64,000 bases of DNA from an uncultured Syntrophobacterales bacterium (GTDB lineage Bacteria; Desulfobacterota; Syntrophia; Syntrophales; UBA5619), in NCBI GenBank assembly GCA_903928915.1, contig CAIYSL010000068.1, forward strand, positions 17,005-81,004, written 5' to 3'. Of this stretch, positions 14,600 to 51,318 are shown piece after piece. Positions within the stretch are counted from its first letter, which is position 1. Each line of letters opens with the position of its first letter. The notes beneath the pieces are model-generated. The model did not search any database. It saw only the letters and a program-made list of their open reading frames with translations, and was not told the DNA's origin. The position numbers were made by a program, and so were the translations under genes.

Positions 14600-14639
14600 C
14601 GGTCGACGACAGCCGCGGAAGGCGTGGGCCGGGCGCTGC

Positions 14640-16157: not shown

Positions 16158-16612
16158 AGTTCCGTCGAGGTCTCGCAGGCGATTGCGCCGTCAAACGGCG
16201 ATATGAATTCCTCCTTCTTCGGTGGCCTTGACCGCTGTCTCGCAGTTCATCCAATGAAATAAGCAAGATACATGCCGTTACCCCATCCGGAGAGGGGCGG
16301 GCCGCCGCAGACGCGGGGCCTATGGCGCCGACAACCAGTATTCGTTAGTGATATAGGAGAGATGAAAAGCTGCGGCCCGAATCGATCCCGGTGCGGGGTT
16401 TCGGCGCGGGGAGGGCGGCATACAGTCAACGCATTGACGGGGCGGCCGAATGATACATCCTCCTGTCGGGAAAATCCTGCAAGGTGGTTCTCTGCCTGCC
16501 GGACCCGTGCCGCGCGCCTTCGGAGGCTTTACAATCCGTTCCGCCTGGTTTATGGTTGCGGACCCGGGGCAGCATTCCGCTCACGGCAAGACCTCAGCGA
16601 ACGGGGAACTGG

Positions 16613-18780: not shown

Positions 18781-19677
18781 TCAGTGGGGTTTGCGCCCCT
18801 CCCGTTTCAGTTTGCGCATCTCCGCCAGGAGCTTGTCGTAGTCCTCGCCCGCCGGGAGCGGCTCATTGCCGCCGGCGGCATCGTACTGTTCCTCCAGTTT
18901 CTTGAGCTGCTCCAGGGCCGTGGCATTCTTGCTGAAGGCCGTATCCATCATCTGCACCAGCGTGCTGCCGGCCTCCCAGAGGTCGTTCAGGTCCACGTCG
19001 AGGCCGGTCAGGGCCAGGACGTTCTTCAGCAGATCGTAGCAGGCCTTCGCGTTCAGGTCCTGGATGTACAGCGGCACCCGCGCGGAGATGCCCGCCATCT
19101 CCACCTCCTGCTCGCGGGCGGCGGAGATCAGCAGCGTGTTGAAACTGGCCGGCCCTTCGTAATCGGTGAACCGGGCGAAGGGGGCAAGATCGTCCTTCAG
19201 CCGCGGGTGGCTGACCGTGGCCATGATCCTCGTCTTCCTGGTGTGCGGGACCTGGTCGAAGATGCCGCCCAGCAGATAGACCCGCGGCGACGCATACTGC
19301 CGGGCCACGGCGAGGATCGCCTGGGCGAATGCCGGCCAGTCCAGGTTCGGCTCGGCGCCCAGAAACAGGATGAGGTCGTGGGCGCCGCCGCTCTTCCAGA
19401 AGAAGAAGTCGTTGCGCGGCATCTCGATCTTCCGCACGATCCCCTCCTTGATCCGGGCCGGGGGGCGCAGGGTTTGCTCGGCGCCGGAGCTCGGGATCTG
19501 ATAGAGGTAAAACCCCGTCGGCTCTATGGAGGCGAACGCGCGCGCCCCGAGTTTGAGACGCAGATAGTCGACGCATCCCGTGGATACATCGCCCGCGTTC
19601 AGCCAGCCCTTGAGGCCGGCCAGGATGTACGGGGCGCTGAGTTGGGGTTTCTCCTGCAGTACGAGACGCCCTTCCAT
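18781..19677 (-). CDS. PAC2 (proteasome assembly chaperone 2-like) family protein
   Basis: ATG at 19677 preceded by GGGAAGGA. YILAGLKGWLNAGDVSTGCVDYL and LFLGAEPNLDW are typical of bacterial PAC2/COG2047 proteins. C-terminal coiled-coil tail. The 88-codon upstream extension in the track is Arg-rich and not coding-like. Confidence 0.75.
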   Translation of the reverse strand: MEGRLVLQEKPQLSAPYILAGLKGWLNAGDVSTGCVDYLRLKLGARAFASIEPTGFYLYQIPSSGAEQTLRPPARIKEGIVRKIEMPRNDFFFWKSGGAHDLILFLGAEPNLDWPAFAQAILAVARQYASPRVYLLGGIFDQVPHTRKTRIMATVSHPRLKDDLAPFARFTDYEGPASFNTLLISAAREQEVEMAGISARVPLYIQDLNAKACYDLLKNVLALTGLDVDLNDLWEAGSTLVQMMDTAFSKNATALEQLKKLEEQYDAAGGNEPLPAGEDYDKLLAEMRKLKREGRKPH

Positions 19678-20288
19678 GCCGTCCTTCCCTGCTCCTTCGC
19701 TACGTGCCGCCCACCGGGCGCGGTACCGGTCACCTCTCCTTATTGGAGTTCGCCTTCGGCGTCGTGTCCGGCGTGTTCTCAGAATAACGGAAAAGAGGCC
19801 GCCCTGACAAGAAGAAATATTTCTGTTTCCGGCGGTCCGGCCGATGTGTATCCCGATTACGGGAATCGGTGAGCGATCCGGGCAGAGCCTCGGAAGGAAC
19901 GTCCTGTCGGTCGAGCGGTCATTTCCTTCTCCCATCGTCAATGAAATGGCTATGCGTCACTAGTGACGTTTTTCGCGAAAAGGGAAACCGTGCTGATTGC
20001 TTTCAAAAAGACTGGTGCGAAATCATGAACATGTGAACAAATCTCCAGTATCTCACTTATACATTATCAATAGCATCCATTAGGCACAGAACGTGCTTAC
20101 GTACCATCGAGATGCTTTAAAGGTTTCCAAGCGGATGCCGATCAGCTTGAATTGACTGGATGACAGCCCCTTAACCGGACAGGCGAGTCCAAGACTGAAC
20201 AGGAAGGCGGAAAGGAGTCTCATACATGAAGGCAGGAAGGAACAAAAAACAGGCGGGCAATCCCGTATCAAAAACAGAGGCGGGGGTT

Positions 20289-22376
20289 ATGAAACCGCGT
20301 GGGGGGGTAACGCGGCGAGATTTTATGAAATATTCGGCCGGAACCGTCGCCTGTCTTTCTTTGGGTTCATTACCCTATGGATGTGGTAGCAGTAACTATG
20401 CACCACAAGTCGCGGGATACCCGATTGATGCCAGGGTTGTAAAAACCACCGAGCGAATGATCGCATTTCCGTATATTGCGGCTTCTGCAGCCCCCCAGCC
20501 GGGTAAGATGCCTAAGCCGGGAGACTCGGCTTTTCCGGCTTCCAGCCCCAACGGCGGGACTGCGCTGACCTGGGATCAATTGTGCCAGATTCAAAACTAT
20601 GACAGACTGGGTTATGGCAAGTGGATATACGTAGACTGGCCCCTCCCGCTCGTGCAGCGGACGGATATCATGCCGGCTAGCTACAATGCCGCAGCCGTCA
20701 CCCCAAAAGCGAGGCTGCTTAACTTTTTCGCCATGACGGATATCCACCTTACCGACAAGGAAGCGCCAAACCAGCTGATCTGGCTCCAGCAGAGTCTTCC
20801 CGGTTACGCCGGGCAAAACAGCTCCATCTACTCGGGGGTCATGCTGTACACCCCCCAGGTCTTCGACGCCGCTATTCAGACGGCAAACGCCCTGCACAAG
20901 AAGAACCCCTTTGACTTCTTCATCTCGCTGGGGGACGTCTGCAACACGAGCATGTACAACGAGCTCAGGTGGTATCTGGACATCATTGACGGCAAGGTCA
21001 TTACCCCCAGTTCCGGCGACCATCGTGGCGCAGACAGCATTGATTATCAGAAGCCGTTCCAGGCAGCGGGTCTGGACAAATCGATCCCGTTCTATCAGAC
21101 CCTCGGTAACCATGACCATTTCATGATCGGTTCGTTCCCTGTCTATGAGTCCGGCCTCGACGGGTCATACATCAGCGATACGGTCTGGTCGGTGTCGAAT
21201 AAACTGCTCACCCCCGTGCCGACCTTTCCGGCCAATATCAACAAGAACAACATCAATGACCCGGATGCAAGATTTTACCAGGGCGTCATCGATGGCACGA
21301 CCCGGTACGGCACCATCAGTAAATCAGGAGCAGTCGGGAGTTATGGCACGCCTCCAAAGGTTGTTGCCGATCCCAACCGCCGTTCACTGCATAGAACGGA
21401 ATGGATTCAGGAGTTTTTCAACACAGCGACCAGTCCGGTTGGCCATGGTTTTAATCTGGTTGCATCCAACCCGAATCTTGGCCTGGTTCCTGCCAACGAA
21501 AGAGCCGGGTTTGCCTGTTACAGCTTTGTGCCCAAGTCGAATGTCCCGCTGAAGGTGATCGTGCTGGACGACACGCAGCGGGAAGACGACGGGTCGGTCG
21601 ACATTCACGGCCACGGGTTTCTTGACGCAACGCGCTGGGCCTGGCTTCAGGCCGAACTTGCAGACGGTCAGGCTGCCAATCAGCTGATGATCATCGCGGC
21701 CCATATCCCGATTGCGGTCGTAAACCCCGGCACTGAGCTAGAATGGTGGCTTGGTGGCTATGATGCTGTTACGAATCCGTTCGGTGACAGGTCTACTACA
21801 ACAAAGAATGCATGTACACTGAAGGAACTGGTTGATACCCTTCAGAACACGACGAACCTGCTGATGTGGATCGCCGGGCATCGCCATGTCAATCACGTTA
21901 AGGCTTTTGTATCGCCTGACCCCGTCAACGCACCCGAAAAAGGATTCTGGCAGGTGGAAAGCTCGTCGTTGCGTGATTTTCCGCAGCAGTTCCGAACTTT
22001 TGAGATCTATCTCAACAGTGACTATACCATTTCAATCGAGGCGGTTAACGTTGATCCGGCAGTTGCGGAAGGAACGCCGGCCGCAACATCGCGAACGTAT
22101 GCGATCGCAACGCAGCAGATACTCCAGAATCCGTTGAAGGCGAATCCTCCGAACTATCAGACGATGTATCATATGGATTTGGGACCGACAGACCCAACCC
22201 GGCTGCGGGGTGGTGACCCACTCAATCAAGGATCAGGAGATGCATATACAGACCCGTCAATCCAGTTTGTTGATCTGACCTCAAAAGGGGTCCCGTACAA
22301 CGCCTCATACAATGCCCAGCTGTTCAAACAATTGAGCCCGGCGATGAAGACACATCTGCGGACACTGTTCCCCTAA
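20289..22376 (+). CDS. Tat-exported metallophosphoesterase (resembles the TIGR03768 RPA4764-type family)
   Basis: Twin-arginine signal MKPRGGVTRRDFMKYSAG. Calcineurin-like motifs I-V: MTDIHLTD, SLGDVCN, LGNHDH, IIAAHIPI, AGHRHVNH. An alternative upstream ATG lies at 20226. Confidence 0.8.
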   Translation: MKPRGGVTRRDFMKYSAGTVACLSLGSLPYGCGSSNYAPQVAGYPIDARVVKTTERMIAFPYIAASAAPQPGKMPKPGDSAFPASSPNGGTALTWDQLCQIQNYDRLGYGKWIYVDWPLPLVQRTDIMPASYNAAAVTPKARLLNFFAMTDIHLTDKEAPNQLIWLQQSLPGYAGQNSSIYSGVMLYTPQVFDAAIQTANALHKKNPFDFFISLGDVCNTSMYNELRWYLDIIDGKVITPSSGDHRGADSIDYQKPFQAAGLDKSIPFYQTLGNHDHFMIGSFPVYESGLDGSYISDTVWSVSNKLLTPVPTFPANINKNNINDPDARFYQGVIDGTTRYGTISKSGAVGSYGTPPKVVADPNRRSLHRTEWIQEFFNTATSPVGHGFNLVASNPNLGLVPANERAGFACYSFVPKSNVPLKVIVLDDTQREDDGSVDIHGHGFLDATRWAWLQAELADGQAANQLMIIAAHIPIAVVNPGTELEWWLGGYDAVTNPFGDRSTTTKNACTLKELVDTLQNTTNLLMWIAGHRHVNHVKAFVSPDPVNAPEKGFWQVESSSLRDFPQQFRTFEIYLNSDYTISIEAVNVDPAVAEGTPAATSRTYAIATQQILQNPLKANPPNYQTMYHMDLGPTDPTRLRGGDPLNQGSGDAYTDPSIQFVDLTSKGVPYNASYNAQLFKQLSPAMKTHLRTLFP

Positions 22377-22425
22377 GGAAAGCAACTGTCTGCGTGGTTA
22401 GTGAAGAAGCCAACCGGGAATTGTG

Positions 22426-22479
22426 AGCGAAAAAAGGCTCAACAAGCAGAGAAAACGCAAGTTGAGCCCTTTTTTCGCT
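22426..22479. terminator. long hairpin flanked by A6/T6 runs (bidirectional intrinsic terminator shape)
   Basis: AGCGAAAAAAGGCTCAAC - 17 nt - GTTGAGCCCTTTTTTCGCT, located 50 nt after the stop at 22376. Confidence 0.6.
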
Positions 22480-22530
22480 ATGCAAAGAGCGATGCCGGAT
22501 AATACGCCCGAGCGATAAGAAAGGTCATCC

Positions 22531-23049
22531 GTGAAACTGTTCAAAGCCATCAAGAACGATTATTTGAAAATTCTTCCGCCAATGATTTATTTCTTCGTCG
22601 CCTTTGTCCTGATCCTGACGACCAAACGAATGATTCTCAGCGAGTATCAAATCTCCTGGACAGGTTTTGGCACGGCGGTTGTCGGCGCCATCCTTGCCGG
22701 CAAAGTGGTGCTGATGGTGGACAAACTGCCCTTTGTCAACCAATTTCCTGATCGGCCGCTGGTCTATAATACGCTTTGGAAAAGCCTTCTTTACTTTCTG
22801 GCCGCGCTGGTTGTCAGTTATCTGAATCAACTCGTTCACTTTCTTCGCAAGCACGAAGGCCTGATGGAAGCAAACCGGCATCTATGGGCTGAAGTGGTAT
22901 GGCCCCACTTCTGGCTTTTGCAGATGTGGCTGGCGGTGCTCTTCCTGATCTTCTGCGCCATGCGGGAACTGATCCGCGTCATCGGCAGAGATAAATTTAT
23001 CCGAATGTTTTTCCGAGTGCGAATTAATAATAGTGAAGGCGGCGTTTAA
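22531..23049 (+). CDS. 4-TM membrane protein of unknown function
   Basis: GTG start. Four hydrophobic segments. The stop overlaps the ATG of the downstream DNase II-like gene by 1 nt (TAATG). Confidence 0.6.
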   Translation: MKLFKAIKNDYLKILPPMIYFFVAFVLILTTKRMILSEYQISWTGFGTAVVGAILAGKVVLMVDKLPFVNQFPDRPLVYNTLWKSLLYFLAALVVSYLNQLVHFLRKHEGLMEANRHLWAEVVWPHFWLLQMWLAVLFLIFCAMRELIRVIGRDKFIRMFFRVRINNSEGGV

Positions 23050-24365
23050 TGAAGCCATCTTCTGAATTGATGGGCAGGGCCATCCGCAACTTCAAGCGAA
23101 AACTCCGCGGGCTCGCCCCGCTGGCCTTAGCACTTGTCCTGCTCGTTTCCCTCAACTCTGCGTGCAGCTCGTCCCCGACTGCTCCATCCGCGCCGGTGCC
23201 GCTTCTTTTTGCCGGTCACCCCGTCGACTGGTGGTTTGTCTTCAAATTCAACTCCGCCAACTTTCCCGAATGCGGCGGAGCTGCCGCGCGTGCCTGCCTG
23301 TTCGGTGGCGAGGTGCAGCAATACTCTCCGTCGTTTGGGCAGCAGTTCGTCTATGCCAGCAATGAAGATGAAGCGCTCCTGGACGGTTCCGGTTGTCTGG
23401 GCGACACCGCCAAGGACCCCGTCGGCGCCACCTTCGATGCGGTGTACAACGGTGACTTCAACTACGTTGTTTGGAACGACCAATTCTACGGCGACCCGCA
23501 GATCGAAGGCTGCACCACGTCTTGCGCCTCTCCCTGGGGCCACTCGAAGGGCATGTTGGCCTGGAATGCCCGGGGTGACGGCCTGGTCATGCAGGTCTCA
23601 ACCCCCTCCTGGCCCGCCGCTGGAAGTAAGTCTTCGCCCCGGCAAACCGACGGCAACACCCTGGGCTGCGTCAAGGACAACAATCTGCTGGTAAGCCAGC
23701 ATTTCTTCGCGCTTAGACTTTCGAAGGATGACGTCGTCAAGGTCCTCACTGCTCTGGTCAACGTCGGCATCGTCACCGACCCCTCGAATCCGCAAATCGT
23801 GCGCAATGGCGGTCCGGTGGACATCCGGCAACTGGTCGGCGCACTCGGCAAACAATCTGCCAGCCGCACCCATATCACCGCCACCCTCTCCAGTGGCGTC
23901 GTGCTGATCTCGAAACCATCGAATCTGCACGTTCCGCCATGGCAGATGGTCTCCGCCATTCTTGGCGGAATTTCCCTGCGTACCGCCACCTGGTGGACCG
24001 ACCCGGAGATCAACTCGACCACCGAATCCACGACCATCGGCTGCTGGGACTCATCGCTCAGCAAACCGGGTGCGGTTGAAATCGCCACCACCGGACAGTG
24101 GAGGAGCCAGACGCTCGGCCTTACCGGCGGGGAGGGTACCGACTTCAACCATGCCAAGATCGGCATTTCCACCTCCGGCGTCGAACCCTATGCCATCTTC
24201 GGTGATATGAATCAGCAGGGCACTCTGTCGGGTCCCAGTTGCGGCAGCAGCCAGAACGGGCGCGGCGGACTTTTCTATGTACTCAAAAACCGGAAACTCC
24301 ACGACAATATCGCGCAATTGATCTCCGGGGCATCGGCGCCTGTGCATGCCAGCCAAGCAAACTGA
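23049..24365 (+). CDS. DNase II family (PLD-superfamily) nuclease, lipoprotein
   Basis: Lipobox LVSLNSAC. Collinear with eukaryotic DNase II: PVDWWFVFKF (PVDWFVVYKLP), WNDQ...GHSKGMLAW...VSTPSWP (YNDQ...GHTKGVL...HSVPNFP), and NHAKIGIS...FGDMNQQ...GRGG (DHSKWCVS...VGDMNRNQ...RGGG). Both HxK motifs are present. Confidence 0.8.
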   Translation: MKPSSELMGRAIRNFKRKLRGLAPLALALVLLVSLNSACSSSPTAPSAPVPLLFAGHPVDWWFVFKFNSANFPECGGAAARACLFGGEVQQYSPSFGQQFVYASNEDEALLDGSGCLGDTAKDPVGATFDAVYNGDFNYVVWNDQFYGDPQIEGCTTSCASPWGHSKGMLAWNARGDGLVMQVSTPSWPAAGSKSSPRQTDGNTLGCVKDNNLLVSQHFFALRLSKDDVVKVLTALVNVGIVTDPSNPQIVRNGGPVDIRQLVGALGKQSASRTHITATLSSGVVLISKPSNLHVPPWQMVSAILGGISLRTATWWTDPEINSTTESTTIGCWDSSLSKPGAVEIATTGQWRSQTLGLTGGEGTDFNHAKIGISTSGVEPYAIFGDMNQQGTLSGPSCGSSQNGRGGLFYVLKNRKLHDNIAQLISGASAPVHASQAN

Positions 24366-24485
24366 ATCAATGGGGGATGGAGGAAGCGTAAAATGACAGG
24401 TGAGAGACCAATTAACGCCCAAGCTGTCTTACCGCGTAAATAACGATTTCCGCTAGCCACGGAACGGATCATTCAAGGAGGATTT

Positions 24486-25946
24486 GTGAAGGTAAAGAAG
24501 ATTTCGGTCATGCAGTTGCTGTTCTTAATGTTTGCCCTGGCTCTGGTTGCCGGATGCGGCGGTTCCGATTCCAATCCAGGCAGTGCGTTAAGCGCCGACA
24601 ATGTCAATTTGATCTTCGTGGTAAGCCCGGATTTGGCCAATCACGCGCAAGGCGACATCAATCCGGACACGGCAAACCTCACCAATCAGGGACTACACCG
24701 TTCGCTGCTCATGGCCACGTACCTGAAAACGCAGATACTGGGGACAAACAACGTAACCGGTATTTACGCACTCGCACCGATGACGCATTTGCAGACCGCA
24801 AACAAATATCCTGACATGACAGCAATCGGGTTCATTCAGCAGTTTGCCCTTCTCAACCAGATCACGCTACCCCTTTATCCTTCGGGGTCCAACTATACCG
24901 CCAACAGCTACCCGATCAATGCTGCGTATGCTCCAGGGGCCGTGCCCAACGGAGTTCATGTGCCGGCTGCATACTGCCCTGATTGCCGGGGGCTGGATTT
25001 CAACAACACCGGAAGCAACAACGATGCGCTGGTATCCGATATCATCAATAAGAAAATCACCGGTTATTATGTCTTTTCGGCGCCTTGGGAGACAATCAGC
25101 TCCTTGTTGGCAAACATAAATACTCTTTATGGATATAACCTGAATCTGCCGGCAACCTATATGGGTACGAATTATGTCTATGCGATCTCCATCGCTCCGT
25201 CGGGAGAAGCGCGCCTCGTTACCTACGACAGCAATCTGAAGCCGTCCTCTGCTTATCCTGTGCTGCCGGCGCCTGTGGCCAGCGCTTCATGCACACACAC
25301 GCAGCAGGTCTATTTCAGCACCGCACGGACCGGAGGGGTTAGTGGCGCCGTAATTCCGGCGAACATAAACACCAACCAAAGGATCTACATTATCCGGCAC
25401 GCAGAGGCGCATCCGGATCCGGGGAACGGTTTTGAAGACGGCAACTTTGTGGGTGCAGGGCAATGGCGGGCGCTGGCCCTTCCCCGTGCTCTCTCCGGGA
25501 AAATACGTCCCAACATGGTTTATTCCATCGACCCCGCACAGTGGTTCTCTACGGGTTATATCAATGTTTCGTATGTCAGGCCCTCATTAACAGTACTGCC
25601 ATATGTTATTGCGAATAATCTGCCCTATTATCTGGTCTCGAGCTTTGATATTGGAGATCCGAACGAACCCCAGCTTGCCGCTGACTTTTTCTTTACCGGC
25701 GGCACGTTCACCAATCAAACCGTGCTGCTGGCGTGGGAGTCCACACGCATTAAACCGCTGATAAATGCGCTCCTCAACAGCTATGGTGCCAGCGGCCTAC
25801 CGCTCCTCCCGACCACTTGGCCGGGTACCGACTACGAAACTATCTGGACCGTGACGCTTGACGCCCGGGGTAACCTGACGGTGAATAACGAGCTGTGCGA
25901 AGGCATCGACTCCGCGGCGCTGCCGGGAACGGCTCCTCAATTCTGA
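24486..25946 (+). CDS. lipoprotein with a histidine-phosphatase (PGAM/SixA-like) domain in the C-terminal half and a degenerate copy in the N-terminal half
   Basis: GTG start, lipobox LALVAGC. C-terminal half has RIYIIRHAEAHPD (RHG-type motif). N-terminal half has LIFVVSPDLANH at the equivalent place. The distal catalytic His could not be located with confidence. Confidence 0.6.
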   Translation: MKVKKISVMQLLFLMFALALVAGCGGSDSNPGSALSADNVNLIFVVSPDLANHAQGDINPDTANLTNQGLHRSLLMATYLKTQILGTNNVTGIYALAPMTHLQTANKYPDMTAIGFIQQFALLNQITLPLYPSGSNYTANSYPINAAYAPGAVPNGVHVPAAYCPDCRGLDFNNTGSNNDALVSDIINKKITGYYVFSAPWETISSLLANINTLYGYNLNLPATYMGTNYVYAISIAPSGEARLVTYDSNLKPSSAYPVLPAPVASASCTHTQQVYFSTARTGGVSGAVIPANINTNQRIYIIRHAEAHPDPGNGFEDGNFVGAGQWRALALPRALSGKIRPNMVYSIDPAQWFSTGYINVSYVRPSLTVLPYVIANNLPYYLVSSFDIGDPNEPQLAADFFFTGGTFTNQTVLLAWESTRIKPLINALLNSYGASGLPLLPTTWPGTDYETIWTVTLDARGNLTVNNELCEGIDSAALPGTAPQF

Positions 25947-26042
25947 GAGTCAGCGCGGGCAACCTGTCGGGCCTGTGAAACGAATAGAGAGGAAATGATC
26001 ATTAACGCAACATAACTCATTACCAAGAATAGGAGACTCACG

Positions 26043-26468
26043 ATGAAGAAAATTACCGTCAGTGCTATTTTGTTGGTCGTTCTGTTTGGACTGGGGATCT
26101 GCTTTGCAGATTCCGGTATTCCCAACCTGGTAGGAACATGGGCCACACAAGCTGAAGGGGCTGTCCTGCTCAAGGGCGGTGCTCACGGAGCCAAGACCCA
26201 CCACAGAGGCGACTTCAGCACCCTCAAGGGCGAAGTGGTCGTAACCAAGCAACAGGGAAGAGTCCTGCATGGAACATTCAAGTCATCACAAGCCACGGAA
26301 AAATTTGTTGCCGTTATTGCCATGGACAACAAGAGCTTCTACCTTGTCGATGAAGATGGTTTCATGGAAGGCCAGATCAGCAACAAAGATCAGATAACGA
26401 TGATTTATCGTCATTCAAGTCCCACCGATACGGTCGTGGCAGTGGGGACCTGGACGCGGAAAAAATAA
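26043..26468 (+). CDS. small secreted protein, lipocalin/beta-barrel-like, unknown function
   Basis: Signal peptide MKKITVSAILLVVLFGLGICFA. The mature part begins NLVGTW and ends VGTWTRKK, with a beta-rich pattern. Confidence 0.55.
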   Translation: MKKITVSAILLVVLFGLGICFADSGIPNLVGTWATQAEGAVLLKGGAHGAKTHHRGDFSTLKGEVVVTKQQGRVLHGTFKSSQATEKFVAVIAMDNKSFYLVDEDGFMEGQISNKDQITMIYRHSSPTDTVVAVGTWTRKK

Positions 26469-26537
26469 CCCATAAACAGGTAATGATCGTCAATACGACG
26501 ATGCATGCAAGAAAGACAAATTGAATAAGGAGAAGAA

Positions 26538-27832
26538 GTGAGTGCAACAAATGTCGAAACCGTAAGAGGAAAGGGCGCCTTTCCCCATATCCGAAAACTG
26601 GATGGGGGCCGCGCTATCAGCAAAAGACATGCATTGACCACGGTGACCGTATGCGTTCTTGTCCTCGCGCTCGCAATGGCTGGCTGCAATGGTGGCGGAA
26701 ACCAGTCGATCCTCATGGAAAGCGGTCCACGGGTTGGAATGGTCACCACCACCGACGCGGTCATCTCCTGGGACCTCCAATCTTCGTCCCATAGTGCTGT
26801 CAACTACCGGGTTGCAGGGGAACGTGAATTCACCGGCAAGGTTCTGTCGAGCAAGGACACGAAACACCACAGTGTCAAAATCACCAACCTGAGGCCCGGC
26901 ACGGTGCATGAGTTTCAGGTCGACGGGCATCCGACGGTAGGGTCGTTCAGGACTGCGACGACGGATGAGACGCCGTTCGTTTTTGTTTCCATGGCGGATA
27001 ACCGCGGGCAATCCGACCAGGATGATATAAAAGGGCTGCCTCAGTCATTGATCAACATCATCAATGATGCCGTCAAAAGGAGCCCGGTATTTGCCGTGAA
27101 CGCCGGTGATCTCTTCTACGGGAAGAACCCCGACAGCGGCATATTTGAAAAGCTCTATCTCTCCTTCAAGAATGCCATCCAGCCGCTGGCACTAAAAACA
27201 TCCTATCTCATCTCTCCGGGGAACCACGAGATGTCTCCCTTTAAATCATCGACGGATCCCGTAGGGTTCGACGCGGCTGCACTCTTCAACGAGAAATTTC
27301 CACAGCCCGGACCGCTTCCCGGCTACGAAGGATTTGTGTTTTCCTGGGACTGGGGCAAAGTGCACTTTGTTTCCATCGCCACAAACCACTTCGACGCGAA
27401 ATTGCCCCCCCCCACTATGGCATGTACCGCATCAGCGACGCGCAAATTGCATGGCTTGATGCCGACCTGCAGAGCGCCAAGAGCAGGGGATCGCTATTCA
27501 TAATCGTGTTCGGCCACTCGAATGCCTACTCAAAACCGTCATGGCCCGATCCTACTCTTGCTGATCTGAACAACACCGACCCTCTCCAGCGAGACAAGTT
27601 CTGGGCGGTTCTCGTTAAGCATAATGCGGATATTTACGTCTGCGGACACCGCCACTTCTTTGATGATTCAATTACAAAGGATGGAGTTGTGCAGTGGATG
27701 AACGGCAACAGCGGTTCCGTTGTCGGAGGCCCCAATCAGTATACCGTATGGACGGTCAACGGCAGCGCCATCACGGCGGAGCTTGTAGACGACACGGGAA
27801 AAACGACCTATACGAGAACGTTCACGAAGTAG
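26538..27832 (+). pseudogene. purple-acid-phosphatase-like metallophosphoesterase lipoprotein, frameshifted at a C9 tract (27405-27413)
   Basis: Lipobox LALAMAGC and an FN3-like N domain. Motifs I-III (SMADNRG, NAGDLFYG, SPGNHE) lie in frame 0. Motifs IV-V (VFGHSNAY, VCGHRHFF) lie in frame 2, in the 27422-27832 ORF. Ten or seven C residues would join the two parts as ...KLPPPHYGMYRISDAQIAWL... Confidence 0.75.
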
Positions 27833-27903
27833 CAGAAAAGACATATGTCATGAACACGGCCGATGTGCGTGTTCAGGGAGAAATTCCTGGAAAGGGGATT
27901 ACA

Positions 27904-29520
27904 ATGGGAAAAAAGAGTTTGCGGATTTGCGTATCGATGGTTTTCATCTTCATACTGGCGTTTTCCGGATGGCAGATACTTGTGGGGTGCAGCAACAAAA
28001 CCGAGGCTACTCCTCTGACAACGATTGCCCCCCCTGCCTATTCTCCCGTTACCCTACCGGATTCCGTGAAGATGGGCCCCTGGCTCGTGTCTTACGGAGA
28101 TCCCCAGGCAATGCTGATCAGGGTTGCACTCTACAAGGACTGTTCCCACGATGCTATGACCGATGGATCTGTATCGGTCTACGATCTTGCGGGAAAAGAG
28201 GTAACCGGCTCTCCATTCAAGCTGGCGCCTTTCAAAACAGCCGAACAGATGGAGAACGGCAAGTTCGTAAGATTTGGACAGTATCCTCCCCACTGGGACA
28301 ATAGCTCCAATGACATTGCCACTCCCTGGTGGGTCCATCTGCTCGAGGCTCAAATAACCGATCTTTCTCCGGCGACTACCTATACCTATGTGATACGTCA
28401 TTCGGTTCTGAGTTCTCCCGGGACAATTACCGCCTCCTTCAAGACAGCGCCTCCGGCGGGCAGCACGAACAATGTGGTCTTTTACGCCTATGGTGACAAT
28501 CGTACATGGCATAACAAGACGTATGGTGAATCACAATTTCCAAAAGTGGAAGAGACGATGGTTGATGACATGGCAGACAGGAGCTTCGTGATTCATGTCG
28601 GGGACGCATCGAACCTTGGCTGGTGGCTTAATTACATGCCCGATGAGCTCCAGTTGGGTTGGCAGGCAGAGTATCTCCGCAGCTCCAATGATAAGGAGTG
28701 GCAAAAGCACGTGTGGTTGAGGGCCAATTATCCGACGTTTATGAGCGTCGGAAACCACGAATTGAAACGAAAAACCGGTGTTACTCAATTTTACCCCGAG
28801 GATCATGCGATGTACGATTTCATCATGGGGAATTTCTCGCGGTATAAAAAGGAAAACACGTTGTTTTTTACCTATGGCAGCGAAAATCCGTTCTCGAGCG
28901 ACCTGACCTACGAAGGCACGTTTGACAGCCAGACCTATATGACAGACTGGGGCGATCTTCGCATCATCAACTTGAACACCTATTTCTGTTTTACCGACAG
29001 TGATCTGACTAATCTGAAAAGCAAACTGAAACTGTGGGTCACCGGGAGAAAGGCGGCGGGAAAGCCCACCATCCTTGTGCTGCACTCTCCCATCTTCTGG
29101 AATGAAAACGTCGTTCAGACCGGGGATAAGCTTGATTCACAGACTACGATACGGGATCAAATCATCCCCATCATCCAGGATGATGTAAACCTGGTCTTAT
29201 CGGGGCATACGCATATTACGACACGAACCAAAGAAATATATTACGAAAAAGACAAAACGATCACGATTGGCGCTGGAAAGGGGCCCGTCTATTACATCAT
29301 TGGAACCGGCGGCGCTCAGGATATGACGAAACCGAAACCGACAGCGACCCAATATTCCGATGTATTGACGAAAACGGGTGAGAAATCCTTGAGTGATTAT
29401 GCCTGGGCGAAATTCACCGTGGACTATGCCGCAGGTAAAATAATCGGCGACATAAAGAGCGGGAATCTGGAAAATAGTCCACGGGAATTGATGGACCATT
29501 ATGAGATTCCCTTTAAGTAA
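27904..29520 (+). CDS. metallophosphoesterase lipoprotein (purple-acid-phosphatase-like)
   Basis: ATG at 27904, lipobox ILVGCS. Motifs AYGDNR, HVGDASN, SVGNHE, LVLHSP, SGHTHI. Confidence 0.8.
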   Translation: MGKKSLRICVSMVFIFILAFSGWQILVGCSNKTEATPLTTIAPPAYSPVTLPDSVKMGPWLVSYGDPQAMLIRVALYKDCSHDAMTDGSVSVYDLAGKEVTGSPFKLAPFKTAEQMENGKFVRFGQYPPHWDNSSNDIATPWWVHLLEAQITDLSPATTYTYVIRHSVLSSPGTITASFKTAPPAGSTNNVVFYAYGDNRTWHNKTYGESQFPKVEETMVDDMADRSFVIHVGDASNLGWWLNYMPDELQLGWQAEYLRSSNDKEWQKHVWLRANYPTFMSVGNHELKRKTGVTQFYPEDHAMYDFIMGNFSRYKKENTLFFTYGSENPFSSDLTYEGTFDSQTYMTDWGDLRIINLNTYFCFTDSDLTNLKSKLKLWVTGRKAAGKPTILVLHSPIFWNENVVQTGDKLDSQTTIRDQIIPIIQDDVNLVLSGHTHITTRTKEIYYEKDKTITIGAGKGPVYYIIGTGGAQDMTKPKPTATQYSDVLTKTGEKSLSDYAWAKFTVDYAAGKIIGDIKSGNLENSPRELMDHYEIPFK

Positions 29521-29681
29521 TATTCATGAACCGGTTTGCAGCCTGATCGTGACCCTCGGCAGAGAGACACGTTATGGGCTGTTCTCACGAATTTAAGCCG
29601 CCGTGCGCGATTCCCGTGGATGTTGCCTCCCGGCGTGCGTTCGGAGGATGGGATCCCGGTAACACAAAAATGTAAGGAGCA

Positions 29682-30704
29682 TTGAAGGTGAACGTAAAAA
29701 GAATTCAAGCGTTAACGATTGCACTTTGGGTGAGTCTTACCCTTGTCGCATGTGGAGGGCAAAATTCAGCTTCGGCGCCGCAAGCTGCCGATTACTCGCA
29801 GGCCGCGCATTGGTTGTCTCTACCTGCTCCGGTCAAGGCAGTGGATGTCTTTTACCTTTATCCGACCGCCTGGTAAAAGGTTAATGCCGGCGATCCAAAC
29901 ATTTGCGACATCGACAACCCGTCCATGCTGGCCGGTTCAGCATCGGCCTTCACGCGAACGGCAACCGCCTTTGAAACCGTTGCCAACATTTATGCGCCGT
30001 ACTACAGACAAGCAGATGCGACATATGTCTTGAAATTGCCTTTGAAAGAGCACGACGCAGTTATCGCAGGCATGCCGACATTAGATGCAGTTGCTGCCTT
30101 CGACTACTATATCAAGAACTTCAACAAGGGCCGTCCGTTTATATTAGCCGGTCACTCGCAGGGATCAAACGTGTTGATTAACCTTCTTGCCGGATATCTG
30201 AAAGATAACCCCGAAGTGTATAAGAGAATGATTGCTGCCTATGTTATCGGCTATCCGGTGACGGCTCAGTATATTGCTGATAATCCGCACGTGATATTTG
30301 CCGAAGGTCCTGATGACACGGGGGTGATCATTTCCTATAACACGCAGGCGCCTGATGTTGTTCCGGGTGTCAATCCGGTCCTGTCAGGATTGATAGGTCT
30401 TGTGATCAATCCGATTACCTGGACGAGAACCGAGACAACGGCGGCCAAGGATGATCCTGCAGCTCTGGGGTCATTAATGCCAAATGGGTCAAGAGTATTT
30501 GTTGCGGTGCCTCAGTACGCTGATGCCAAAGTCGATATTGCCAACGGCGTGTTGGTCTGCACGACTGCTGACGAAAATGGATTATATGAATTAACCCAGC
30601 ATGCCATGCCGAGGGGCGTTTACCATAGCTTTGATCATCCTTTTTATTATTTTAATCTTCGGGAAAATGCTCAAAACAGAGCCAACAGGTACTTGGGAAA
30701 ATAG
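29682..30704 (+). pseudogene. DUF3089-type alpha/beta hydrolase lipoprotein interrupted by an in-frame TAA (29874-29876)
   Basis: The two track ORFs (29682-29876 and 29925-30704) share a frame and are separated only by one TAA. Read through, the sequence is VDVFYLYPTAW*KVNAGDPNICDID...YAPYYRQAD...FILAGHSQGS, which matches DUF3089 hallmarks. Lipobox LTLVACG. Confidence 0.7.
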
Positions 30705-30802
30705 AAGAGACAAAATCAAAGTCAGTCCGAACGTTACCCGATAGCTTCCGATGTTTTACGGTGTGCCGGAAGATGATCGACCCTGGCTCGAAACCAGGAT
30801 GA

Positions 30803-31630
30803 TCAAAGGGGAGCGAGATCCTTTAGCGCAGCGATGAGTGCTGCGGGGTCGTCGAATACCGGTCCGGCAGCGGTGGCTTTTGGTCGGCTGAGGACGATGA
30901 CCCGGCAATCAGCGTGGCGCGCCGCGGCGAGTTTGGCGTCGAAGCCGCCGGCCAGGCCGCTCTCCTTGGTGACGATCACCCCGATCCCGAACCGCCGGAT
31001 GGCGGCGAGGTTTTCCCCGAGCGCGAAGGGGCCGCGCCCGGCGATGATCTGGTCTTCGGCGATCCCCGCTGCCCGGCAGGCGGCCAGCGACTCCGGGGCG
31101 TCGAGGACGCGGACGGCGAAAAGGATGCCGGTCCGGCGGGCGGCCTCAGTGTAAGGGACGAGGTTCCGCGAGCCGGTAGTGATCAGGACGGGGCGGCCGT
31201 CGGCGAAGGCGAGGGCCGCGGCCTCGCGGTGGTCGGCGGCGAAACGGACCGGTGTGCCTGGGGATTCGGGGCTGCCGGAAGGGCTGTCGGCGGGACGGGA
31301 TTCGCTGTCCCGGCTCTCCGGGGGCAGCGCCTCGGGACGGTGGAGCCTGAGGCAGGGGATTCCCCGCAGTTTTGCCGCGTTCTGCGCGGCCTCATGGACG
31401 GTGGCGGCGTAAGGGTGGGCGGCGTCGACGATCGCCCGGATCTGCCGTGCCGTGACGAGGTCGACGAGCCCCGCTTCGTCGAGACGTCCCGTCCGGCGGC
31501 GGATCCGGGGGTGCTCCCCGATCGCCAGCGGGGCATCCGTCGCCGTCGAGACGAGGATGTCGTAACCCGCCGCGGCGAGGCCGAAGGCGAGGGGGGCGGT
31601 TTCGCTCGTCCCGCCGATGAGGAGGATCAT
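30803..31630 (-). CDS. cbiJ: cobalt-precorrin-6A reductase
   Basis: MILLIGGTSE, AIVDAAHPYA, ITTGS and VTKESG are CbiJ/CobK hallmarks. Contains a Ser/Pro-rich insertion. Confidence 0.85.
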   Translation of the reverse strand: MILLIGGTSETAPLAFGLAAAGYDILVSTATDAPLAIGEHPRIRRRTGRLDEAGLVDLVTARQIRAIVDAAHPYAATVHEAAQNAAKLRGIPCLRLHRPEALPPESRDSESRPADSPSGSPESPGTPVRFAADHREAAALAFADGRPVLITTGSRNLVPYTEAARRTGILFAVRVLDAPESLAACRAAGIAEDQIIAGRGPFALGENLAAIRRFGIGVIVTKESGLAGGFDAKLAAARHADCRVIVLSRPKATAAGPVFDDPAALIAALKDLAPL

Positions 31631-51079: not shown

Positions 51080-51148
51080 CCGTATTTCATCCTCAACCCG
51101 TTTCCGATCCGCGACCCCTCTCCGCGAGGGTCATACCACTCAGGACAG

Positions 51149-51305: not shown

Positions 51306-51318
51306 GAATTATGGCCTA

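What the first reader, a model, noticed from the sequence alone, without database searches (positions are those of the whole stretch)
19945..30790. Mobility-gene-free low-G+C island encoding mainly exported phosphoesterases, a possible extracellular DNA/organophosphate scavenging module
Between two high-G+C native blocks lie eight co-oriented genes with clearly lower G+C (hand counts 40-57 % per line against about 80 % at 31201). Each product has an export or membrane signal (Tat, lipobox, Sec or TM).

Six of the eight are phosphoester hydrolases or related hydrolases:
- a Tat metallophosphoesterase
- a DNase II-family nuclease
- a histidine-phosphatase-like lipoprotein
- two purple-acid-phosphatase-like lipoproteins
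- a DUF3089 hydrolase

DNase II-type enzymes leave 3'-phosphate ends, so a set of downstream phosphatases would make biochemical sense as a pathway releasing phosphate and nucleosides from extracellular DNA. There is no integrase, transposase, tRNA or obvious flanking direct repeat. Two genes are already inactivated, which suggests an old acquisition under relaxed selection. I do not know of this gene combination as a described system.
Basis: partly seen in the sequence, partly recalled or inferred. Interest (0 to 1): 0.65.

Follow-up and report, generated by a model that had tools for sequence, protein, structure and literature searches.

The report
Acquired island of exported phosphoesterases
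An 11-kb stretch of foreign, lower-G+C DNA in a high-G+C anaerobic (Syntrophales) bacterium carries eight genes for exported hydrolases, mostly phosphate-ester-cleaving enzymes. It is a borrowed, reshuffled copy of a gene cluster common in related low-G+C anaerobes and probably frees phosphate from dead-cell material, but no experiment has tested that.

Summary
Window 19.9-30.8 kb has 52.6% G+C against 66.9 +/- 2.3% for equal-sized flank pieces. It holds eight co-oriented genes for exported or membrane proteins and no mobility genes, tRNA or flanking repeats.

New evidence shows horizontal acquisition. Two related Syntrophales genomes have the empty site, with CbiJ directly next to PAC2. A sister genome has the island at the same site. 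Smithellaceae chromosomes carry the homologous cluster in DNA of matching composition (tetranucleotide r 0.86-0.88).

- The gene set does recur elsewhere, but it is modular.
- In an unbiased sample of 42 loci centred on g4 (the histidine-phosphatase-like lipoprotein), 29 had adjacent metallophosphoesterases and none had DNase II. DNase II is therefore an accessory gene, not the hub.
- DUF3089 is a carboxylesterase. Relatives add lipases, phospholipase B, PAP2 and a PLC/AcpA-type enzyme, so lipids and phospholipids are as likely a substrate as DNA.
- Selection is purifying (dN/dS 0.16-0.37, like the flanks), not relaxed.
- One "dead" gene is a C9/C10 homopolymer slip that is intact in another sample. 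The other is a true CAA->TAA nonsense mutation.
- No Pho box was found.

Verdict: a real, well-documented acquisition of an undescribed but unsurprising nutrient-scavenging cluster. Interest is moderate.

The parts
18781..19677 (-). Host flank: PAC2-family gene. The true start is probably the ATG at 19677 (298 aa); the 386-aa ORF is over-extended.
   Evidence: TIGR00162 and PF09754 hits. Homology to the empty-site genomes L095 and L096 resumes at 19668-19681.
19682..20225 (.). Left junction and g1 upstream region. It contains a 14-bp perfect palindrome, CGTCACTAGTGACG (19953-19966), and a sigma54-like GGCACAGAACGTGC element (20083-20096, + strand).
   Evidence: G+C drops to 0.44 at 19900-20099. 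About 280 nt upstream of g1 are conserved in L091 and L090. The sigma54-like pattern has only one match in 64 kb, but it is not conserved upstream of g1 in L007, L009 or L087.
20226..22376 (+). g1: Tat-exported TIGR03768-family metallophosphoesterase (716 aa).
   Evidence: TIGR03768 781 bits against a cut-off of 387; TAT signal 21.2 bits against 16.7. Motifs TDIH, GDVCN, GNHD and GHRH are present. Orthologues are 81-90% identical in L088, L090 and L091.
22531..23049 (+). g2: 172-aa multi-TM protein of unknown family. It always lies directly downstream of g1, and its stop overlaps the g3 start (ATGA).
   Evidence: No Pfam, NCBIfam or PADLOC hit. g1-g2 adjacency is seen in the window, L091, L090, L009 and L007.
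23049..24365 (+). g3: DNase II-family (PLD-superfamily) protein with a signal peptide. It is an accessory member of the cluster.
   Evidence: PF03265 E 1.3e-16, covering profile positions 7-321 of 326. Two HxK motifs are invariant: H165-S-K167 and H368-A-K370 (compare PMC5449587). At least 2990 homologues exist. The structure model failed.
24486..25946 (+). g4: 486-aa lipoprotein of an undescribed family. Its C-terminal domain is histidine-phosphatase-like. It is the core member of the cluster.
   Evidence: No Pfam or NCBIfam hit. At least 1734 homologues. All top Foldseek hits are histidine phosphatases. H305 is invariant and R304 nearly so. 28% identity to a RefSeq 'histidine phosphatase family protein', with RHGE, YVRP and WEH aligned. 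A fusion with DUF3089 exists (P0155).
26043..26468 (+). g5: 141-aa secreted protein of unknown family. In the window's clade it lies directly downstream of g4.
   Evidence: No family hit. 73-88% identical orthologues lie next to g4 in L009, L090, L091, L092 and L087.
26538..27832 (+). g6: purple-acid-phosphatase-like lipoprotein. It is interrupted by a -1 frameshift in a C9 run at 27405-27413; adding one C restores a 431-aa protein.
   Evidence: Hits to Pur_ac_phosph_N, fn3 and Metallophos, all just below their curated cut-offs. Motifs GDLFY, GNHE and GHRH are present. Site compared with L091 and repaired. The gene is called intact (431 aa) in sample ERZ1426820 and in L091.
27901..29520 (+). 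g7: second PAP-like metallophosphoesterase lipoprotein. The start is uncertain (27694, 27850 or 27901). It is absent from the sister genome.
   Evidence: Metallophos 1e-10. Lipobox LVGC and motifs GDNR, GNHE and GHTH. No orthologue in L091.
29682..30704 (+). g8: DUF3089 (lipolytic family XV-type) carboxylesterase lipoprotein, a pseudogene through a CAA->TAA nonsense mutation at 29874-29876.
   Evidence: PF11288 2.2e-39. GHSQG nucleophile motif (PMC4431682). Both ORF pieces are in the same frame. Gln occupies this position in P0155, and the gene is intact at 337 aa in L091. The same 259-aa truncated call appears in all sibling contigs.
30705..30802 (.). Right junction between the convergent genes g8 and CbiJ. 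It holds a short hairpin, CCTGG-N7-CCAGG.
   Evidence: Homology to the empty-site genomes ends at 30797-30808. The window and L091 diverge immediately after the CbiJ stop.
30803..31630 (-). Host flank: CbiJ (precorrin-6A reductase), the last gene of the anaerobic cobalamin operon.
   Evidence: PF02571 and the cbi operon context. The nearest named homologues are from 'Syntrophales bacterium' MAGs.

Best explanation
The region is a horizontally acquired chromosomal island in a high-G+C Syntrophales-type anaerobe.

ORIGIN. It was inserted between the cobalamin gene cbiJ and a PAC2-family gene, before the window's lineage and a sister lineage separated. It came from a roughly 50% G+C Syntrophales (Smithellaceae-like) lineage, where the same kind of cluster is compositionally native. 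Since then it has been inherited vertically under purifying selection, while individual genes were swapped, lost or replaced.

FUNCTION. It is one version of a modular, undescribed gene cluster. The constant core of that cluster is the g4 lipoprotein (histidine-phosphatase-like) plus one or more exported metallophosphoesterases (TIGR03768 type, a ~470-aa type, or PAP-like). Variable add-ons are DNase II, DUF3089 and LIP esterases or lipases, phospholipase B-like, PAP2 and PLC/AcpA-type enzymes.

MOST LIKELY MECHANISM (inferred). The products are exported by Tat, Sec or the lipoprotein pathway to the periplasm or cell surface. There they hydrolyse organic phosphate esters from dead-cell material: nucleic acids through g3, phosphodiesters and monoesters through g1, g4, g6 and g7, and acyl esters or phospholipids through g8 and its relatives. 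The released phosphate is taken up by host transporters that are not encoded in the island.

SHOWN VERSUS INFERRED. Shown: foreign composition, the empty site, the sister site, the donor-type clusters, domain identities, catalytic motifs and export signals. Inferred: the substrates, phosphate acquisition as the purpose, and the regulation.
For: ACQUISITION
- G+C is 0.526 against 0.669 +/- 0.023. Tetranucleotide r is 0.70 to the flanks (null range 0.85-0.96) but 0.86 to non-homologous Smithellaceae DNA.
- The empty site (cbi operon-CbiJ, 140-175 bp, then PAC2) is present in two Syntrophales MAGs, L095 and L096.
- The sister MAG L091 has the island at the same site. Its flanks are high in G+C, and the island-flank contrast is the same.
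- Smithellaceae L009 and L007 carry the cluster in DNA of native composition.
- The junctions are reproduced in independent assemblies.

VERTICAL RETENTION AND SELECTION
- dS of g1-g3 is 0.23-0.31, matching the flanks at 0.24-0.26. dN/dS is 0.16-0.27, against 0.16-0.24 for the flanks.

MODULARITY
- g4, g6 and g8 have higher dS (0.43-0.76).
- The window's g4 is 68-71% identical in protein to the sister's but 85-86% to L090's.
- L090 keeps a 98-bp remnant of DNase II.
- Gene content differs across the window, L091, L090, L088, L087, L009, L007 and L092.

CORE
- 29 of 42 g4-centred metagenomic loci have cluster-type metallophosphoesterases, mostly directly upstream and co-oriented.
- Other recurrent neighbours are a PLC/AcpA-type phosphoesterase-propeller protein (13 loci), LIP (9 loci) and phospholipase B-like (4 loci).
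- A DUF3089-g4 fusion protein exists.
- g4 is fused to Ig-like surface domains in some members.

ENZYMES
- Family hits and intact catalytic motifs.
- g4 fold and motif evidence.
- Export signals on every product.
Against: - No biochemical or expression data exist for any of these families, apart from distant DNase II and DUF3089 relatives.
- There is no Pho box above chance, and no pst, phoU or phoBR genes beside any version of the cluster.
- The island encodes no phosphate, nucleoside or fatty-acid transporter.
- g4 lacks a sequence-level match to Pfam His_Phos or to any solved structure. Its subfamily also has Ser where the family consensus has the second catalytic His.
- The g3 model failed, so its fold is unverified.
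- The transfer vehicle is unknown: no mobility genes, no target-site duplication, and no plasmid or phage match.
- The order of events rests on four genomes without a species tree. L094, whose CbiJ is the closest in protein sequence, has a third arrangement.
Confidence: 0.6

Rival explanations
1. The island is a dedicated extracellular-DNA scavenging pathway: DNase II cuts DNA to leave 3'-phosphate ends, and the downstream phosphatases then release phosphate and nucleosides.
For: - g3 passes the Pfam DNase_II threshold and keeps both HxK motifs.
- DNase II chemistry gives 3'-phosphate ends (PMC5449587).
- Exported phosphatases are needed for growth on eDNA in V. cholerae, including a metallophosphoesterase-type 3'-nucleotidase, CpdB (PMC4714964).
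- In the window's own clade, DNase II sits in the middle of the cluster.
Against: - DNase II is absent from 42 of 42 unbiased g4-centred loci.
- It has been lost from the closest relative, L090, which keeps the rest of the cluster.
- It is solitary in 76 of 80 genomes.
- Recurrent partners are lipases, esterases, phospholipase B, PAP2 and PLC/AcpA-type enzymes, which do not act on DNA.
- DNase activity of this remote subfamily is untested, and it has no detectable similarity to the crystallised enzyme.
Confidence: 0.2
2. The cluster is mainly a phospholipid or membrane-debris degradation module. Esterases, lipases or phospholipase B remove the acyl chains. PLD-superfamily (g3), PLC/AcpA-type and metallophosphodiesterase enzymes cleave the head-group diesters. 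g4, the PAP-like enzymes and PAP2 remove the terminal phosphate.
For: - DUF3089 is a characterised carboxylesterase family, and g8 has its GHSQG motif.
- A DUF3089-g4 fusion exists.
- LIP, Phospholip_B, PAP2 and PF04185 phosphoesterase genes recur in the clusters.
- g3 belongs to the phospholipase D superfamily (PMC5449587).
Against: - In this window the only acyl-esterase gene (g8) is a pseudogene, and LIP, PLB and PAP2 are absent. This copy therefore retains only phosphoesterases.
- Most g4 loci have metallophosphoesterases but no lipase.
- No lipid-binding or fatty-acid uptake genes were identified.
Confidence: 0.15
3. The block is not foreign. It is a native region whose low G+C reflects gene-specific constraints, or it is an assembly or binning chimera.
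For: - There are no mobility genes, tRNA or direct repeats.
- The source is a metagenome-assembled contig.
Against: - Empty-site genomes exist.
- The tetranucleotide match to non-homologous Smithellaceae DNA is r = 0.86.
- GC3 of island genes (0.56-0.74) equals that of orthologues in low-G+C lineages and lies below that of nearly all host genes in the window, most of which are at 0.75-0.93.
- Both junctions recur in independent assemblies, and the sister genome L091 has the island at the same site.
Confidence: 0.03
4. The island is a defence or toxin module, for example a nuclease toxin with a membrane immunity protein.
For: A nuclease-family gene (g3) is translationally coupled to a small membrane-protein gene (g2).
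Against: - No PADLOC hit for any of the genes.
- All the enzymes carry export signals.
- g2 tracks with g1, not with g3; in L009 it is coupled to DUF3089, and in L007 a PAP2 gene follows it.
- There are no secretion-system or effector-delivery domains.
Confidence: 0.02

Closest known systems
Extracellular-DNA/nucleotide phosphate acquisition in Vibrio cholerae (nucleases Dns and Xds plus phosphatases UshA, CpdB and PhoX; PMC4714964, PMC3212620), and the Pseudomonas aeruginosa eddAB nuclease-phosphatase operon (from my own knowledge, not checked here)
   Same: Exported nuclease(s) work together with exported phosphatases, including metallophosphoesterase-type enzymes, to free phosphate outside the cytoplasm. 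The logic of a nuclease plus phosphatases is the same.
   Different: The enzyme families differ: DNase II/PLD type rather than EndA or Xds type, and TIGR03768, PAP-like and g4 rather than UshA, CpdB and PhoX. The V. cholerae genes are dispersed and regulated by PhoB. Here the genes are clustered, no Pho box was found, the nuclease is dispensable across the family, and lipid-ester hydrolases are frequent partners.
Burkholderia thailandensis DNase II (acid DNase, PLD superfamily; PMC5449587)
   Same: g3 passes the Pfam DNase_II model over nearly its full length and has two HxK motifs with similar spacing.
   Different: There is no detectable pairwise or profile similarity to any solved chain. 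g3 is about 90 residues longer and carries a signal peptide. The paper describes bacterial DNase II as limited to 'a few genera', whereas this subfamily has at least 2990 clusters, mainly in Acidobacteriota and Desulfobacterota MAGs. Activity is untested.
Lipolytic family XV / DUF3089 esterases (Est10, EstD2 and others; PMC4431682)
   Same: g8 matches PF11288 and has the GHSQG nucleophile elbow and a signal peptide.
   Different: g8 is a lipoprotein, and in this window it is a nonsense pseudogene. In P0155 the domain is fused to g4.
TIGR03768 / TIGR03767 Tat-exported metallophosphoesterase families (NCBIfam 'hypothetical equivalogs')
   Same: g1 scores 781 bits over the full length of TIGR03768 and has the Tat signal.
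   Different: The family has no characterised member, and no paper in the searched library mentions it. Its regular pairing with g2 and its membership of this cluster have not been described.
Classical genomic islands
   Same: The composition is foreign, the island is present or absent at a fixed chromosomal site among relatives, and it carries adaptive cargo.
   Different: There is no integrase, no tRNA target, no direct repeats and no target-site duplication. The content is remodelled gene by gene, apparently by homologous recombination with related clusters.

Membership tests
Horizontally acquired genomic island | Composition deviates from the host genome | tested here: met
   G+C about 6 SD below the flanks. 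Tetranucleotide r is 0.70, against a null range of 0.85-0.96.
Horizontally acquired genomic island | Present or absent at the same site among related genomes (an empty site exists) | tested here: met
   L095 and L096 have CbiJ and PAC2 adjacent. L091 has the island at the same site.
Horizontally acquired genomic island | A plausible donor lineage carries the homologous cluster in native composition | tested here: met
   Smithellaceae L009 and L007 have G+C of 0.44-0.58 throughout, and r is 0.86-0.88 to the island.
Horizontally acquired genomic island | Mobility signatures (integrase, tRNA target, direct repeats) | tested here: not met
   No tRNA, no flanking repeats or target-site duplication, no integrase or transposase domains, and no plasmid, phage or viral carrier.
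DNase II (PF03265, PLD superfamily): g3 | Passes the curated family model | tested here: met
   61.1 bits against a gathering score of 23, covering profile positions 7-321 of 326.
DNase II (PF03265, PLD superfamily): g3 | Two catalytic HxK motifs | tested here: met
   H165-S-K167 and H368-A-K370 are invariant in 12 sequences. The reference motifs are H100/K102 and H279/K281.
DNase II (PF03265, PLD superfamily): g3 | DNase II fold | tested here: inconclusive
   The AlphaFold model had pLDDT 35. There are no sequence matches to the PDB.
DNase II (PF03265, PLD superfamily): g3 | Metal-independent acid DNase activity that leaves 3'-phosphate ends | not testable with these tools
   Needs an enzyme assay.
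TIGR03768 metallophosphoesterase: g1 | Score above the curated cut-off, a Tat signal and metallophosphoesterase metal-binding motifs | tested here: met
   781 bits against 387. TAT 21.2 bits against 16.7. Motifs DIH, GDVCN, GNHD and GHRH.
Purple acid phosphatase-like: g6 and g7 | N-terminal PAP Fn3-like domain | tested here: inconclusive
   Pur_ac_phosph_N scores 25.1 bits (g6) and 17 bits (g7), both below the cut-off of 30.
Purple acid phosphatase-like: g6 and g7 | GDxxY (tyrosine ligand), GNH[DE] and GHxH motifs | tested here: met
   g6 has GDLFY, GNHE and GHRH. g7 has GNHE and GHTH but GDASN (no Tyr), so g7 meets this only in part.
Histidine phosphatase superfamily: g4 C-terminal domain | Curated sequence model (Pfam His_Phos or NCBIfam) is hit | tested here: not met
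   No hit for g4, for divergent relatives or for the bridging homologue.
Histidine phosphatase superfamily: g4 C-terminal domain | Fold similarity | tested here: met
   All 11 Foldseek hits with E <= 1e-3 are histidine phosphatases (RosC, PGAM5, and the MutT1-family protein Rv2985), with SixA just below that cut-off. Target TM scores are 0.33-0.57. The model is only moderate (pLDDT 62).
Histidine phosphatase superfamily: g4 C-terminal domain | Catalytic RHG motif plus a second catalytic His | tested here: inconclusive
   H305 is invariant and R304 nearly so (RHAE). The family consensus has WEH at 417-419, but the window's subfamily has WES.
Lipolytic family XV / DUF3089: g8 | Family model plus the GHSQG nucleophile | tested here: met
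   PF11288 2.2e-39. GHSQG at residue 157.
Lipolytic family XV / DUF3089: g8 | Intact reading frame | tested here: not met
   In-frame TAA at 29874-29876, present in all sibling contigs.
Pho regulon member | Pho box upstream, or pho/pst genes adjacent | tested here: not met
   The E. coli-type Pho-box scan is at chance level, and there are no pho or pst genes in any cluster version. The Pho-box consensus for this lineage is unknown, so the test is weak.
Anti-phage defence system | Any component matches a known defence family | tested here: not met
   PADLOC gives no hit for any of the 8 proteins.

The most novel reading that the evidence does not exclude
The g4 lipoprotein plus exported metallophosphoesterases may define an undescribed, widespread extracytoplasmic digestion module of anaerobic Desulfobacterota (Syntrophales, Geobacteraceae). 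g4 belongs to a family of at least 1734 sequences that has no Pfam model.

The accessory set of this module (DNase II, purple-acid-phosphatase-like, histidine-phosphatase-like, phospholipase-B-like, PAP2, lipases) resembles the acid-hydrolase repertoire of eukaryotic lysosomes.

The module moves between lineages and exchanges cassettes without any mobility genes. In this strain it may also be tuned by a phase-variable poly-C tract in one lipoprotein gene.
Probability: 0.3. Interest if true: 0.55.

Novelty: new variant of a known kind. Interest (0 to 1): 0.4.

Why it matters
If the functional reading is right, syntrophic and metal-reducing anaerobes in peat, sediments and digesters share a portable toolkit for recovering phosphorus from dead biomass. 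That bears on phosphorus cycling in anoxic, phosphate-poor habitats.

The finding also flags three sizeable protein families that have no characterised member and have clear genomic partners, which makes them good targets for biochemistry:
- the g4 lipoproteins;
- the TIGR03768 phosphoesterases with their g2 partner;
- a DNase II-like subfamily far more widespread in environmental bacteria than the 'few genera' reported in 2017.

As an evolutionary case it is unusually complete. The donor type, the empty site and the sister site are all known, and there is gene-by-gene remodelling without mobility genes. None of this overturns current understanding.

Tried and rejected
- **g3 structure.** Prediction from a 12-sequence alignment failed (pLDDT 35), so no fold comparison with DNase II was possible.
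- **Solved structures.** Sequence and profile searches of the PDB for g1, g3 and g4 found nothing meaningful.
- **Pho box.** The E. coli-type scan gave 2 matches against 2.6 expected.
- **Sigma54-like element.** The -24/-12-like element upstream of g1 is the only GGCAC-N6-TGC match in the window and is conserved in L091 and L090. It is absent upstream of g1 in L007, L009 and L087, so I kept it only as a low-confidence lead.
- **Promoter and terminator scans.** These were at background level.
- **g4 internal duplication.** hhalign gave only E 0.016 (probability 3%). It is suggestive (an LT-x-x-G helix motif occurs in both halves) but unproven.
- **Defence role.** PADLOC found nothing.
- **RNA elements.** Rfam found only a cobalamin riboswitch, outside the island.
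- **Transfer vehicles.** No plasmid or phage match to the island DNA. g4 and g1 have only remote plasmid hits. The viral contig scan for g4 was empty.
- The look-up of the Citrifermentans bemidjiense g4 homologue was not on record.
- **Literature.** No paper mentions TIGR03768. The D. alaskensis phosphate-limitation study had nothing specific.
- **Host species.** It could not be named. The window's genome is not among the species representatives returned. Only 'Syntrophales bacterium' labels on the closest homologues are available.

Full report

Yes. In 1-kb windows, G+C is 0.50-0.60 from 20001 to 31000. Immediately outside it is 0.63-0.69 on the left and 0.68-0.71 on the right. At 200-nt resolution the drop is at about 19900 and the rise at about 30900.

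The block as a whole is 0.526. Twenty-two flank pieces of the same length average 0.669 (SD 0.023, minimum 0.628). After normalising for base composition, tetranucleotide usage of the block correlates at only 0.70 with the flanks, whereas flank pieces correlate at 0.85-0.96 with the rest of the flanks. Third-position G+C is 0.50-0.74 in the block, against 0.75-0.93 in most host genes.

Eight co-oriented + strand ORFs fill the block.
- g1: TIGR03768 metallophosphoesterase (781 bits, cut-off 387) with a Tat signal.
- g3: Pfam DNase_II (61 bits, cut-off 23).
- g6 and g7: Metallophos with weak purple-acid-phosphatase N-domain hits.
- g8: DUF3089.
- g2, g4 and g5: no family.

Read directly from the sequence, g4, g6, g7 and g8 have canonical lipoboxes. 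g1 has TRRDFM, g3 has a signal peptide with a non-canonical LNSAC, g5 has a Sec-type signal, and g2 is a multi-TM protein.

There is no tRNA anywhere in the window, and no convincing flanking repeats.

The block is not an assembly artefact. The CbiJ/g8/g7 junction recurs in at least five independent assemblies at 99.97-99.99% identity where DNA is available, and the left junction recurs in another.

**2. Corrections to the observation**

The two 'inactivated' genes differ in kind.
- g8 carries an in-frame TAA at 29874-29876; both ORF pieces are in the same frame. A fusion protein, P0155, reads ...YPTAWQKVN... at that point, so the mutation is CAA->TAA. All sibling contigs call the same truncated 259-aa product, and the sister genome has an intact 337-aa gene.
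- g6 is broken by a C9 run at 27405-27413. Adding one C gives a 431-aa protein. A 431-aa gene is called at that position in sample ERZ1426820, on a contig that carries the same flanking CbiJ protein, and also in the sister genome. This is either an assembly error or homopolymer slippage in the population; I could not tell which.

DUF3089 is not a phosphoesterase. It is the domain of characterised carboxylesterases (Est10, EstD2 and others) with a GHSQG nucleophile elbow (PMC4431682), and g8 has GHSQG.

**3. Where the block came from**

The host flanks encode anaerobe metabolism: a DMSO-reductase-family enzyme, aldehyde:ferredoxin oxidoreductase and the anaerobic cbi cobalamin operon. The nearest named homologues of CbiJ come from 'Syntrophales bacterium' MAGs.

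Four lines of evidence show acquisition.

(a) Empty site. In two Syntrophales MAGs (L095, L096; G+C 0.63-0.71) the cbi operon ends with CbiJ, and the PAC2 gene follows after 140-175 bp. Their homology to the window stops at 30797-30808 and resumes at 19668-19681.

(b) Sister site. MAG L091 has MFS-RlpA-PAC2-[island]-CbiJ. Its flanks are 80-90% identical to the window's and high in G+C, and its island is low in G+C.

(c) Donor type. A scan of species-representative genomes with a DNase II alignment returned 80 loci. Only the Smithella, Smithellaceae, Syntrophorhabdaceae and one 'Geobacter'-labelled MAG loci (L007-L010) contain other island families nearby, both by tblastn and by custom HMMs. 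In the Smithellaceae chromosome L009 the cluster runs g1-g2-DUF3089-DNase II-two Metallophos-two g4-g5-g1 paralogue-TetR. It sits in DNA of 0.44-0.58 G+C throughout, with the same local bump over the DNase II gene.

(d) Signature. The island's normalised tetranucleotide usage correlates at 0.88 with L009 and L007, and at 0.86 with only their non-homologous flanks. GC3 of island genes equals that of orthologues in the low-G+C lineages.

No vehicle was found. There are no mobility genes, no target-site duplication, and no plasmid, phage or viral-contig match.

**4. History after acquisition**

Between the window and L091, synonymous divergence of g1-g3 (0.23-0.31) equals that of the host flank genes (0.24-0.26). 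dN/dS is 0.16-0.27 for g1, g2, g3, g5, g6 and g8, and 0.37 for g4, against 0.16-0.24 for the flank genes. The island has therefore been inherited vertically since before the two lineages split, and it is under ordinary purifying selection. This contradicts 'relaxed selection' as a general description. The small expected amelioration at dS of about 0.25 fits the nearly unchanged GC3.

The content, however, is fluid:
- L091 has an extra ~470-aa Metallophos between g3 and g4, a LIP lipase and a second g1 paralogue, and it lacks g7.
- g4, g6 and g8 have elevated dS (0.43-0.76).
- The window's g4 is only 68-71% identical in protein to the sister's but 85-86% identical to that of L090.
- L090 is a different genomic context. 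It shares g1-g2 and g4-g5 with the window at 86-91% nucleotide identity. It has a PAP-like gene and a 357-aa gene where DNase II should be, and it retains a 98-bp remnant of the DNase II 3' end in front of g4.

This looks like cassette replacement by recombination among related clusters.

**5. What the cluster is**

Nine versions were compared: the window, L091, L090, L088, L087, L009, L007, L010 and L092. The recurrent members are g1 (often with a paralogue), g2 directly after g1, g4, g5 directly after g4, a ~470-aa Metallophos, PAP-like proteins, DUF3089 and PAP2. Occasional members are LIP, a phospholipase B-like protein, a tannase and a C69 peptidase.

Most of those loci had been found through DNase II. 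I therefore scanned metagenomes with g4 as the query. Among the 42 loci of at least 8 kb:
- 18 had g1, 15 had the ~470-aa Metallophos and 5 had a PAP-like protein.
- 29 had at least one of these three, mostly directly upstream of g4 and co-oriented.
- 3 each had DUF3089, g5 and g2.
- None had DNase II.

Clustering all neighbours across 50 loci added three more partners:
- a ~1000-aa beta-propeller protein with a PF04185 'Phosphoesterase' (phospholipase C/AcpA-type) region, in 13 loci;
- LIP-type lipases, in 9 loci;
- sensor histidine kinases, in 16 loci.

So the conserved core is g4 plus exported metallophosphoesterases. DNase II is an accessory confined to the window's clade. Conversely, the DNase II subfamily is large (at least 2990 clusters, mostly from Acidobacteriota and other soil or sediment MAGs) and normally solitary.

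**6. The unknown core protein g4**

The family has at least 1734 members at the 90% level and 436 representatives at 50% (121 with E <= 1e-30). None has a Pfam domain. Named members come from Syntrophales, Smithellaceae, Syntrophus, Geobacteraceae (Citrifermentans bemidjiense, Geotalea) and Ozemobacteraceae.

Evidence on its fold and chemistry:
- An AlphaFold model (pLDDT 62, pTM 0.60, good in the C-terminal half) matched only histidine-phosphatase-superfamily structures at E <= 1e-3. These were RosC, PGAM5 and the MutT1-family protein Rv2985, with SixA just below that cut-off.
- H305 is invariant, and R304, E307, H309, R365 and E418 are nearly so, in a broad alignment.
- A 210-aa Paraburkholderia protein that RefSeq names 'histidine phosphatase family protein' aligns with g4 residues 298-463 (28% identity, pairwise E 3e-15). 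RHGE aligns opposite RHAE, YVRP opposite YVRP, and WEH opposite WES.
- Neither protein hits a curated HMM, and the window's subfamily has Ser where the consensus has the second catalytic His.

Catalytic competence is open.

Other members are fused to Ig-like surface domains and to DUF3089. This fits a surface or periplasmic location and a functional link to an acyl-esterase.

**7. Mechanism**

Shown: every product carries an export or membrane signal, and the catalytic motifs of g1, g3, g6 and g7 are intact.

Inferred: the enzymes act in the periplasm or at the cell surface on organic phosphate esters, and the benefit is phosphate (and perhaps carbon) from necromass.

In this window's version the nucleic-acid branch (g3) and four phosphoesterases (g1, g4, g7, and g6 if the C10 allele is present) remain, while the acyl-esterase branch (g8) is dead.

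Regulation is unknown. There is no Pho box above chance. A sigma54-like element at 20083-20096 and a palindrome at 19953-19966 are leads only.

**8. Comparison with known systems and novelty**

The closest functional analogues are the eDNA-to-phosphate systems of V. cholerae (PMC4714964, PMC3212620). P. aeruginosa eddAB is a further analogue that I cite from my own knowledge. They share the logic of a nuclease plus phosphatases, but they use different families and are Pho-regulated.

I found no description of this gene combination, of TIGR03768 or of the g4 family.

The finding is a new variant of a known kind: a nutrient-scavenging exo-hydrolase cluster on a genomic island. It is solidly documented as an acquisition, functionally plausible but untested, and not very surprising to a specialist. 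Interest 0.4.

Noticed in passing
window 11234-16406: This 5.2-kb segment is absent from the sister genome L091, where the flanking homologous blocks are only about 24 nt apart. It holds a 1024-aa NHL-repeat, ScyF-like ORF (11525-14599, G+C 0.57-0.59) and a GlgA-like glycosyltransferase gene (14640-16157). Tetranucleotide similarity to the rest of the window dips to 0.68 here. It is a second indel or a possible second island.
   Followed up: partly
window 27405-27413: A C9 homopolymer inside the lipoprotein gene g6 causes the frameshift. The gene is called intact (C10-equivalent) in another sample that carries the same flanking CbiJ protein. This is either an assembly error or a phase-variable tract.
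   Followed up: partly
window 19953-19966 and 20083-20096: A perfect 14-bp palindrome, CGTCACTAGTGACG, lies at the left island edge, about 120 nt upstream of a sigma54-like GGCACAGAACGTGC element. That element is the only such match in 64 kb. It is conserved in the close relatives L091 and L090 but not in more distant clusters.
   Followed up: partly
window 51137-51318 (- strand): A cobalamin riboswitch (RF00174, 105.6 bits) lies among the cob/cbi genes.
   Followed up: no
window 45301-48468 (- strand): A single 1055-aa ORF joins a CobD-like threonine-phosphate decarboxylase region (residues 206-549) to full-length CobQ cobyric acid synthase (566-1053). This is an apparent gene fusion.
   Followed up: no
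L096 4064-6339; window 35303-35638: The empty-site relative L096 has two low-G+C (0.52-0.54) genes without Pfam hits inserted inside its cbi operon. At the corresponding place the window has a 111-aa ORF with low GC3 (0.55). This may be another small insertion hotspot.
   Followed up: no
L090 7068-7165: A 98-bp remnant of the DNase II 3' end (92% identical to window 24283-24380) sits directly upstream of g4 in a cluster that otherwise lacks DNase II. It is a footprint of cassette replacement.
   Followed up: yes
P0155 (810 aa, JGI metagenome): A natural fusion of a DUF3089 carboxylesterase with the g4 domain. Other g4 relatives are fused to He_PIG or Big_5 Ig-like domains.
   Followed up: partly
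g4-centred loci, e.g. L124 6877-9951 and L010 6348-7679: Sensor histidine kinases (hybrid dCache-HAMP-PAS-HisKA-REC in L124, PAS-HisKA in L010) lie directly upstream of g4. Kinases of this cluster occur in 16 of 50 loci. This may be a dedicated regulator that the window's island lacks.
   Followed up: no
DNase II-like family: This DNase II-like subfamily has at least 2990 sequence clusters, mostly from Acidobacteriota, Bryobacterales and other soil or sediment MAGs. That is far more than the 'few genera' of bacteria described in the 2017 structural paper.
   Followed up: partly
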